The translations under genes were made by a program, and so were the position numbers. The notes under the pieces are model-generated. The model did no database searches. It had not been told where the DNA came from and saw only the letters and a program-made list of their open reading frames with translations. From Octopus vulgaris (Eukaryota), in contig OX597824.1 in the NCBI GenBank assembly GCA_951406725.2, forward strand, positions 48,236,001 to 48,300,000: 64,000 nucleotides of DNA, in the 5' to 3' direction. How positions within the stretch are numbered: the first letter of the stretch is position 1; each line of letters starts with the position of its first letter. Shown piece after piece: positions 45,252 to 45,466 of the stretch.

Positions 45252-45466
45252 ATTTATTATATAGAAGGAGCTTCTACAGGACTAGTACTGTTTCATTCAA
45301 GAGAAATCTTCAGGAAGCATCCTGAAGCTTCCTGAAGATTTCTCTTGAATGAAACAGTACTAGTCCTGTAGAAGCTCCTTCTATATAATAAATTAATTTT
45401 ACTCTGCTATGTATTGAGTACCTTACTTACTGTGGTTAACCCCGAATCAACCCGGGACCTACATAA
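45252..45466 (+). mobile_element. Short fold-back (perfect 67-bp arms) plus 3' extension, PLE-like end
   Basis: 45252-45318 is the exact reverse complement of 45327-45393 with an 8-nt spacer; embedded in (TA)n. Confidence 0.85.
45326..45376 (+). ncRNA. Type I hammerhead ribozyme motif
   Basis: agcttc-CTGAAGA-t-ttc-tctt-gaa-t-GAA-Acag-tactagtc-ctgT-A-gaagct: 6-bp stem I, short stem II, 4-bp stem III, GUA triplet (cut after 45370). Inverted copy at 45269-45318. Confidence 0.8.

What the first reader, a model, noticed from the sequence alone, without database searches (positions are those of the whole stretch)
45252..45393. Perfect palindrome made almost entirely of a hammerhead and its antisense
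Seen: 67-bp arms with no mismatch. The right arm folds as agcuuc/gaagcu (stem I), CUGAAGA, uuc-ucuu-gaa (stem II, U.U at its base), GAAA, acag/cugu (stem III) and a GUA triplet. The 5' truncation falls almost exactly at the start of stem I, so the ~215-bp insert is little more than a ribozyme. Inference: a very recent minimal, retrozyme-like non-autonomous unit, or a truncation where reverse transcription stalled at the ribozyme and snapped back.
Basis: partly seen in the sequence, partly recalled or inferred. Interest (0 to 1): 0.72.

Follow-up and report, generated by a model that had tools for sequence, protein, structure and literature searches.

The report
Head-to-head stump of a Penelope-like retrotransposon
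This perfect DNA palindrome is real and carries a hammerhead ribozyme motif, but it is most likely an ordinary, very short head-to-head insertion of the end of an abundant Penelope-like retrotransposon, in which the mirror copy would block the ribozyme, rather than a new self-cleaving mobile RNA.

Summary
In detail: exact 67-bp arms (45252-45318 / 45327-45393) and a complete type I hammerhead motif with a predicted cut after 45370. The insert (about 214 bp, 45252-45465) lies in a (TA)n tract with a 15-bp target-site duplication and a 72-nt one-sided tail. In four public runs from three organisms the sequence belongs to a very abundant family. That family has two fixed 3' ends (45393, 45465), the Penelope 'tail' signature, and continues upstream of the ribozyme, so it is longer than a ribozyme. 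Both neighbours share this layout; one carries a GIY-YIG endonuclease end. A same-sized stump at 22064-22290 has no hammerhead. Verdict: a 5'-truncated, head-to-head Penelope-like insertion, a layout already described. It is not a retrozyme: the two hammerheads face opposite ways and any read-through RNA is predicted to bury them in a hairpin. One lead stays open: the same junction, centred on the self-complementary AGCT at the start of stem I, recurs in other copies (17 and 3 contigs in two runs), so breakpoints may cluster there. The family's own ORF and cleavage were not testable. Interest 0.27.

The parts
45239..45253 (.). Left copy of a 15-bp target-site duplication in a (TA)n tract (overlaps the first 2 nt of the arm)
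   Evidence: marked by an irregular TAA found at both flanks
45252..45318 (-). Inverted arm: second copy of the element's 3' end, lacking the tail; holds the hammerhead on the minus strand
   Evidence: outer end matches the family-wide end at 45393
45318..45337 (.). Head-to-head junction: self-complementary AGCT (45326-45329) plus a 10-bp tandem duplication (45318-45327 / 45328-45337, 9 of 10) that makes the apparent 8-nt loop
   Evidence: loop-less form of the same junction in X1 (17 contigs) and X4 (3)
45326..45376 (+). Type I minimal hammerhead motif of the pLTR; predicted cut after 45370; palindromic stem III loop, predicted to dimerise
45327..45393 (+). Direct arm; 45393 is the family's inner fixed 3' end
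   Evidence: (TA)n follows 45393 in 19, 12, 12 and 6 contigs of the four runs
45394..45465 (+). 72-nt one-sided tail; 45465 is the outer fixed 3' end
   Evidence: (TA)n follows 45465 in 76, 39, 37 and 11 contigs; weakly like the tail of the GIY-YIG neighbour (11 of 2000 shuffles)
45463..45477 (.). Right copy of the 15-bp target-site duplication, start of a (TA)n tract running to about 45602
44202..45206 (+). Neighbour 1 (another family): 235-bp inverted arms (226 of 235), hammerhead motif with core starting at 44993 and triplet ending at 45070, tail of about 90 nt, 15-bp target-site duplication 44189-44203 / 45205-45219
45601..46686 (+). Neighbour 2 (another family): 374-bp inverted arms, 3' end of a GIY-YIG endonuclease ORF (45936-46340), hammerhead-like motif with U4C core at 46525-46587, tail of about 63 nt, (TA)n on both sides

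Best explanation
The 214-bp insert is a head-to-head pair of the hammerhead-bearing 3' end of an abundant repeat family, most likely a Penelope-like retroelement (PLE), which would have been written into a (TA)n tract in one event by reverse transcription primed from both nicked strands. Steps: (1) shown: the family has two fixed 3' ends, 45465 and 45393, both joined to (TA)n, and extends upstream of the hammerhead. (2) shown: this copy has a 15-bp target-site duplication, one arm with the tail and one without. (3) inferred from in vitro work on the anole PLE: the GIY-YIG endonuclease nicks both strands about 11-15 bp apart; the nick at the right flank primes cDNA from the outer start (45465), the nick at the left flank from the inner start (45393). 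(4) inferred: both cDNAs stopped at the 5' edge of stem I and annealed through the self-complementary AGCT; repair filled the gaps, with a 10-bp slippage duplication at the join in this copy. (5) predicted: the product is a dead stump, since read-through from either side makes the antisense arm first and folds the ribozyme into a 67-bp duplex. Odds: PLE stump about 0.87; double priming versus fold-back about 60:35 within that.
For: Two fixed ends and (TA)n targets in 4 of 4 runs laid; native upstream sequence in 4 of 4. 15-bp TSDs here and at neighbour 1. Neighbours share arms + hammerhead + one-sided tail; neighbour 2 has a GIY-YIG end (Pfam E = 0.0035, below the curated cut-off) whose relative P0136 shows RT-like motifs followed by a C-terminal GIY-YIG (E = 2.6e-20; motifs read by eye). 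5 of the 6 loose hammerhead hits in 64 kb fall in these three elements (0.55 expected). Published layout: inverted 5'-truncated pLTR, one-sided tail, (TA)n targets (PMC8557442); palindromes at the inverted junction, head-to-head most frequent (PMC3846280); minimal hammerheads in pLTRs and opposite-strand pairs 100-700 bp apart (PMC4209133); both strands cut and extended, two RT starts that define the tail, uncut RNA as main template (PMC11167929). Whole-insert folds of -130.0 and -130.9 kcal/mol with the 67-bp hairpin on both strands. cDNA ends ending in AGCT self-anneal through 4 bp.
Against: No ORF of this particular family was seen: one search shows only 30 nt upstream and no genome is held. 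The tail is 72 nt, longer than the 30-40 bp in the papers read (neighbours: about 63 and 90). Tail likeness to neighbour 2 is weak: six other stretches of the window score higher and one ties. Both arms share a minority letter at 45359 (the other letter has 72-95% of depth), which fits one template, so fold-back, at least as well. P0136 has no Pfam hit. PMC3846280 favours self-priming. One run shows one contig going back from 45387 to 45326 (table 5c), a possible short tandem.
Confidence: 0.55

Rival explanations
1. Same PLE stump, but made by fold-back: one cDNA stopped at stem I, primed on itself at or near AGCT, copied back, and the endonuclease resolved the hairpin at 45393.
For: Arms identical including a minority variant; junction exactly symmetrical; self-priming proposed in PMC3846280, endonuclease resolution of the tail in PMC8557442; the modelled cDNA end at 45326 closes stem I on itself (pair probability about 0.7), which could release it from the RNA.
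Against: A zero-loop hairpin at AGCT cannot form in cis (inference); priming from the closed stem I would leave the core as a loop, which is not what is seen; it needs an extra cut at exactly 45393, whereas a second RT start is shown in vitro for one PLE.
Confidence: 0.3
2. A self-propagating non-autonomous mini-element (retrozyme-like or palindromic 'mini-PLE') that moves as this 214-bp unit.
For: The junction recurs in at least two sequence variants (core CUGAUGA in X1, CUGAAGA in X4 and here); non-autonomous PLE derivatives and retrozyme monomers are described.
Against: Hammerheads head-to-head, not same-sense tandem (definition); native upstream sequence outnumbers the junction in shown contigs (28 vs 17, 12 vs 3); this copy's loop has almost no depth (203, 243, 0, 0 against 5,000-278,000 in the next bin); ribozyme predicted buried in any read-through RNA.
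Confidence: 0.1
3. Assembly or library artefact (fold-back chimera).
For: Perfect arms; library types of the runs are not on record; AGCT is a common restriction site (recalled), so the recurring loop-less junction in X1/X4 could be a ligation or amplification artefact.
Against: The mirror stops exactly at a family-wide end (45393); flanks are not mirrored; a TSD frames the insert; the loop has cover in two runs of two studies; the second AGCT at 45373-45376 shows no such class among the rows shown.
Confidence: 0.03
4. A MITE or microRNA-like hairpin with a chance hammerhead motif.
For: Rfam miRNA models score the hairpin (E = 3e-11, below gathering); no Rfam hammerhead hit.
Against: Asymmetric tail, 15-bp TSD, family continuing beyond the centre; motif in 0 of 5000 shuffles; hammerhead motifs at the same relative place in two neighbours that share no clear arm homology.
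Confidence: 0.02

Closest known systems
EN+ Penelope-like elements with inverted 5'-truncated pLTR and one-sided tail (PMC8557442 Fig. 2; PMC3846280)
   Same: Head-to-head inverted repeat, palindrome at the junction, tail on one side only, AT-rich/(TA)n target, TSD, hammerhead in the repeated end.
   Different: Truncated to 140 + 67 nt with no ORF left; tail 72 nt rather than 30-40; TSD up to 15 bp rather than 8-10 in Adineta; junction recurs at the 5' edge of stem I, which I did not find stated in the passages read.
Minimal PLE hammerheads (min-HHR; PMC4209133)
   Same: Type I topology, full core, palindromic stem III loop suited to dimers; opposite-strand pairs close together already noted in Schistosoma.
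   Different: Stem II short (3 bp on a U.U pair, as in axolotl HHR_Amex2, PMC7229834) rather than long with G10.1-C11.1; stem III longer (4 bp + 8 nt).
Non-LTR retrozymes (PMC7229834; bioRxiv 10.64898/2026.07.22.740005)
   Same: Short, non-coding, type I hammerhead, PLE-related.
   Different: No same-sense tandem, no second hammerhead to release a monomer; the family is longer than the insert.
PAc (Poseidon of Anolis) in vitro system (PMC11167929)
   Same: Two internal RT starts that bound the tail; AT-rich nicking on both strands; hammerhead upstream of the starts.
   Different: PAc is Penelope/Poseidon clade; the neighbour's relatives carry a cysteine linker of Neptune/Nematis type (read by eye); this family's clade is unknown.
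LINE-1 twin priming (recalled, not read)
   Same: Both target strands prime cDNA; join by microhomology.
   Different: In L1 the inverted part is a different stretch of the RNA; here both arms are the same 3' end.

Membership tests
Penelope-like element insertion | ORF with telomerase-like RT and GIY-YIG endonuclease in full-length members | not testable with these tools
   No genome held; only 30 nt of upstream sequence shown; no copies in metagenome, viral or prokaryote collections. Met only for neighbour 2's endonuclease end.
Penelope-like element insertion | 5' truncation with an inverted 5'-truncated copy of the 3' end at the head | tested here: met
Penelope-like element insertion | One-sided tail bounded by two fixed 3' ends | tested here: met
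   Ends at 45393 and 45465 in 4 of 4 runs; length 72 nt, above the published 30-40
Penelope-like element insertion | AT-rich/(TA)n target with TSD | tested here: met
   (TA)n behind both ends in 4 of 4 runs; 15-bp TSD, in low-complexity DNA so its length is uncertain
Penelope-like element insertion | Hammerhead within the pLTR, upstream of the tail | tested here: met
Penelope-like element insertion | Partial tandems (pLTR-ORF-pLTR) elsewhere in the genome | not testable with these tools
   Contigs break at this repeat; no piece spans the stretch
Type I hammerhead ribozyme | Core C3-U4-G5-A6-N7-G8-A9, G12-A13-A14, A15.1-U16.1, H17 between three helices | tested here: met
   U10.1-U11.1 has precedent (PMC3088659; PMC7229834)
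Type I hammerhead ribozyme | Match to an Rfam hammerhead model | tested here: not met
   no hammerhead family at gathering score or E<=10
Type I hammerhead ribozyme | Covariation of stems across copies | tested here: inconclusive
   one search lists only two variable sites, neither in a stem; one core variant at N7 in a loose-end consensus
Type I hammerhead ribozyme | Self-cleavage after H17 | not testable with these tools
   Only contigs were available; no raw RNA reads
Non-LTR retrozyme | At least two same-sense hammerheads in tandem units of about 150-450 bp | tested here: not met
   Opposite strands at this locus; 3' ends run into (TA)n, not into a next unit, in the rows shown (82 rows hidden, one contig goes back to 45326)
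Non-LTR retrozyme | Small circular RNA product | not testable with these tools
   No raw RNA run listed
MITE | Symmetric terminal inverted repeats directly at both ends | tested here: not met
   72-nt tail on one side; family continues past the centre

The most novel reading that the evidence does not exclude
The 5' edge of hammerhead stem I is a built-in stopping and joining point for Penelope reverse transcription: closure of stem I in the nascent cDNA, or a 3' splice site that coincides with it (the family has a pyrimidine-AG there, and the Drosophila virilis intron ends at helix I), ends both cDNAs at a self-complementary AGCT, so this family repeatedly stamps out the same ribozyme-sized palindromes. 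That would give PLE hammerheads a structural role independent of cleavage, and seed the genome with many perfect 67-bp hairpins, potential substrates for A-to-I editing or small-RNA processing.
Probability: 0.22. Interest if true: 0.55.

Novelty: new member of a known kind. Interest (0 to 1): 0.27.

Why it matters
As a locus it is ordinary retrotransposon debris. Its use is mechanistic. How PLEs make their inverted ends, and what their hammerheads do, are stated as open in the papers read. A very abundant family with young copies, two fixed 3' ends and a recurring junction at stem I is a natural data set to separate double priming from fold-back and to ask whether the ribozyme's structure, rather than its cleavage, sets where cDNA stops.

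Tried and rejected
No genome is held for the window, so copies could not be collected. Pattern scans for the family found 0 matches in metagenome, viral and prokaryote contigs; neighbour 2's protein found no locus in metagenome contigs (59 candidate stretches, none confirmed) and no longer homologue by word search (0 of 83). Rfam: no hammerhead; miRNA hits reflect the perfect hairpin only. No RNA holder listed; all 24 listed runs are contigs and none holds half the words of 44200-45466; 4 of the 24 were laid, none of them a guessed-RNA run. No other family copy in the window. Four short window motifs were absent from the supplement of PMC8557442 as held in text, where long sequence runs are shown cut. 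Tail alignment of five elements was uninformative except finding/15.4k, finding/neighbour 2 and neighbour 2/15.4k. Neighbour 1's interior gave no convincing ORF. Pfam on 95 of 196 non-repetitive frames of the window found only transposon domains, so no host gene context. Earlier-finding look-ups by place or sequence were empty. Searches that found no paper on cephalopod PLE hammerheads or on a junction hot spot at stem I: (open-licence PMC and bioRxiv only; the 2005-2006 PLE reviews were not read).

Full report
Observation. The palindrome is exact: arms 45252-45318 and 45327-45393, 67 of 67, with 8 nt between (z = -25.6). The right arm holds a full type I hammerhead motif: stem I 45326-45331/45371-45376, CUGAAGA, a U.U pair under a 3-bp stem II, GAAA, a 4-bp stem III with a self-complementary loop, and GUA with the cut predicted after 45370. 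A strict descriptor (written after seeing the motif) matched 0 of 5000 shuffles of the segment and 1 of 100 shuffled windows. Rfam has no hammerhead hit here. As a monomer stem II is weak (pair probability about 0.1) and the active fold is 1.2 kcal/mol above the MFE; two copies of the stem III region pair at -15.2 against -1.4 kcal/mol alone, as expected for dimer-type hammerheads (PMC4209133). A U.U at this place is known in active hammerheads (PMC3088659; PMC7229834).

Anatomy. The insert runs 45252-45465: inverted arm, junction, direct arm, 72-nt tail, inside a (TA)n tract, with a 15-bp direct repeat at 45239-45253 and 45463-45477 marked by an irregular TAA. The 8-nt loop is a 10-bp tandem duplication, 9 of 10 identical. 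The window is repeat-rich animal DNA of about 36% GC in which Pfam found only transposon domains among 95 of 196 frames scanned; that it looks like octopus is recalled, not tested.

Neighbours. Immediately left (44202-45206) and right (45601-46686) lie two elements of other families with the same plan: inverted arms (226 of 235; 371 of 374 plus one 10-bp indel), a hammerhead motif whose cut site lies about 40 nt from the arm's outer end, a one-sided tail (about 90 and 63 nt), (TA)n flanks; the left one also has a 15-bp TSD. Five of six loose hammerhead hits in 64 kb fall in these three elements (mean 0.55, maximum 2 in 100 shuffles). The right neighbour carries the end of a GIY-YIG ORF (Pfam E = 0.0035, under the cut-off); 4734 proteins match it at E<=0.001, and the longest of the best 150, P0136, reads as RT, cysteine linker, then GIY-YIG (by eye, no Pfam hit). 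A fourth insert at 22064-22290 has 74-bp arms, a tail of about 70 nt and (TA)n flanks but no hammerhead hit: such stumps do not need a ribozyme inside.

The family elsewhere. I laid 45319-45466 on 4 of 24 listed runs (X1, X2, X4, X8; three organisms, four studies; contigs only). 8022, 1634, 827 and 154 contigs were laid, so the family is very abundant (the tool warns that depth is no copy number). Of the loose-end table 24 rows are shown and 82 hidden. (TA)n follows 45465 (76, 39, 37, 11 contigs) and 45393 (19, 12, 12, 6), with minor ends at 45395-45397: two fixed ends, the inner one exactly where this copy's inverted arm stops. The family's own upstream sequence precedes 45326 in all four runs (28, 16, 12, 2), so the element is longer than the ribozyme. 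A second 5' class, before 45324, consists of left-arm letters and makes a loop-less palindrome centred on AGCT (17 contigs in X1, with a CUGAUGA core; 3 in X4); it is not among the rows shown for X2 and X8. No class at the cut site is shown. This copy's own loop has depth 203, 243, 0, 0 against 5,000-278,000 in the next bin, so it is private or nearly so. At 45359 most of the family has another letter (72-95% of depth), yet both arms here agree. Two deep X8 contigs match the window without a difference over 56 and 61 nt, which suggests a young subfamily (upper bound 3.1%); arm identity alone allows up to 5.4%. One X1 contig returns from 45387 to 45326 (table 5c), unexplained.

Mechanism. Each outer end of the insert is a 3' end of the element, and a TSD frames both. 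Read 5' to 3' from either flank, the DNA continues as cDNA. This is what priming from nicks on both strands would give, one at each of two RT starts, with the cDNAs meeting head-to-head. The anole PLE cuts and extends both strands, starts at two internal sites that bound the tail, is predicted to be a dimer, and uses uncut RNA (PMC11167929). Two identical cDNA ends can anneal only where the end is self-complementary; AGCT at the start of stem I is such a place (4-bp duplex). This is inference. Fold-back self-priming with endonuclease resolution (PMC3846280; PMC8557442) gives the same product and explains the shared minority letter more simply; I put the two at about 60:35. Either way the product is predicted to be inert as a ribozyme: read-through from either flank makes the antisense arm first and folds at about -130 kcal/mol with the 67-bp hairpin.

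Why stem I? Three untested options: any self-complementary 4-mer would do; stem I closing in the cDNA releases its end (probability about 0.7 in the free cDNA, but the RNA-DNA hybrid would compete); or a splice acceptor lies there (pyrimidine-AG at the start of stem I in this family and in neighbour 2, not in neighbour 1; the D. virilis intron ends at helix I). The recurring class could also be a library chimera, since library types are not on record.

Comparison. It works like, and by four testable features matches, a 5'-truncated PLE insertion with inverted pLTR and tail (PMC8557442; PMC8969392). Opposite-strand pairs of minimal hammerheads 100-700 bp apart were noted in 2014, and junction palindromes in 2013. 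The defining ORF could not be tested for this family. It fails the retrozyme definition of two same-sense hammerheads in tandem. Recently active Penelope-like families are reported in Octopus vulgaris without mention of ribozymes or palindromes in the main text (PMC13282606; its supplement was listed, not read, and may name this family).

What I saw of each paper: PMC8557442 passages and supplement searches; PMC3846280 passages and the Discussion; PMC4209133 and PMC11167929 parts 1-2 of 4; bioRxiv 10.64898/2026.07.22.740005 part 1 of 5 and passages, supplements not seen; PMC7229834 passages and one section; PMC3088659, PMC13282606, PMC8969392 passages; other papers as search listings only. L1 twin priming, the restriction-site remark and cephalopod RNA editing are recalled (one search was a listing only).

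Verdict. Real, and a new member of a known kind; interest 0.27. The lead worth keeping is the recurring junction at the edge of stem I (probability 0.22 that the ribozyme's border causes it; interest 0.55 if so).

Noticed in passing
window 22064-22290: Stump of the same build (74-bp arms, tail of about 70 nt on the left, (TA)n both sides, small duplication at the centre) with no hammerhead hit; possibly a hammerhead-free PLE such as Naiad, not matched to the supplement searched.
   Followed up: partly
window 46525-46587 (+) and its mirror near 45635-45697 (-): Neighbour 2's hammerhead-like motif has a CCGAAGA (U4C) core in both arms and an ATG at the start of stem II, as described for the anole PLE.
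   Followed up: partly
window 44202-45206: Neighbour 1: arms differ at 9 of 235 sites, one of which breaks stem III of the left-arm hammerhead; 440-nt interior without a clear ORF; 15-bp TSD of the same maximal length as the finding's.
   Followed up: partly
window 44189-46720: Three different PLE-like families inserted side by side in (TA)n tracts within 2.5 kb: earlier insertions and their TA flanks may serve as landing sites for later ones.
   Followed up: no
window 15415-15500 (-): Lone tail-like piece beside a (TA)n tract that resembles the finding's tail (2 of 2000 shuffles).
   Followed up: partly
window 45326-45328 and 46525-46527: Stem I starts with pyrimidine-AG in the finding's family and in neighbour 2: possible 3' splice site at helix I, as in D. 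virilis Penelope.
   Followed up: no
window 39239-39435, 28506-28902, 63123-63433: Three further palindromic inserts without (TA)n flanks or hammerhead hits; MITE-like or older stumps.
   Followed up: no
window 51532-51608 and 53124-53200: 77-bp inverted repeats, 97% alike, 1.5 kb apart, no Pfam hit in the frames scanned; possibly a non-autonomous DNA transposon.
   Followed up: no
window 16483-17846 and 24225-25566; 18949-21891: Two mariner copies with terminal inverted repeats in (TA)n, and a decayed LINE with endonuclease and RT domains.
   Followed up: no
run X2, loose ends at 45378, 45398, 45454: A recurring foreign sequence that looks like a proximity-ligation bridge adapter (recalled), so this run may contain ligation chimeras.
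   Followed up: no
run X1, table 5c: One contig goes from 45387 back to 45326 with one letter between: a possible short tandem of the hammerhead region elsewhere.
   Followed up: no
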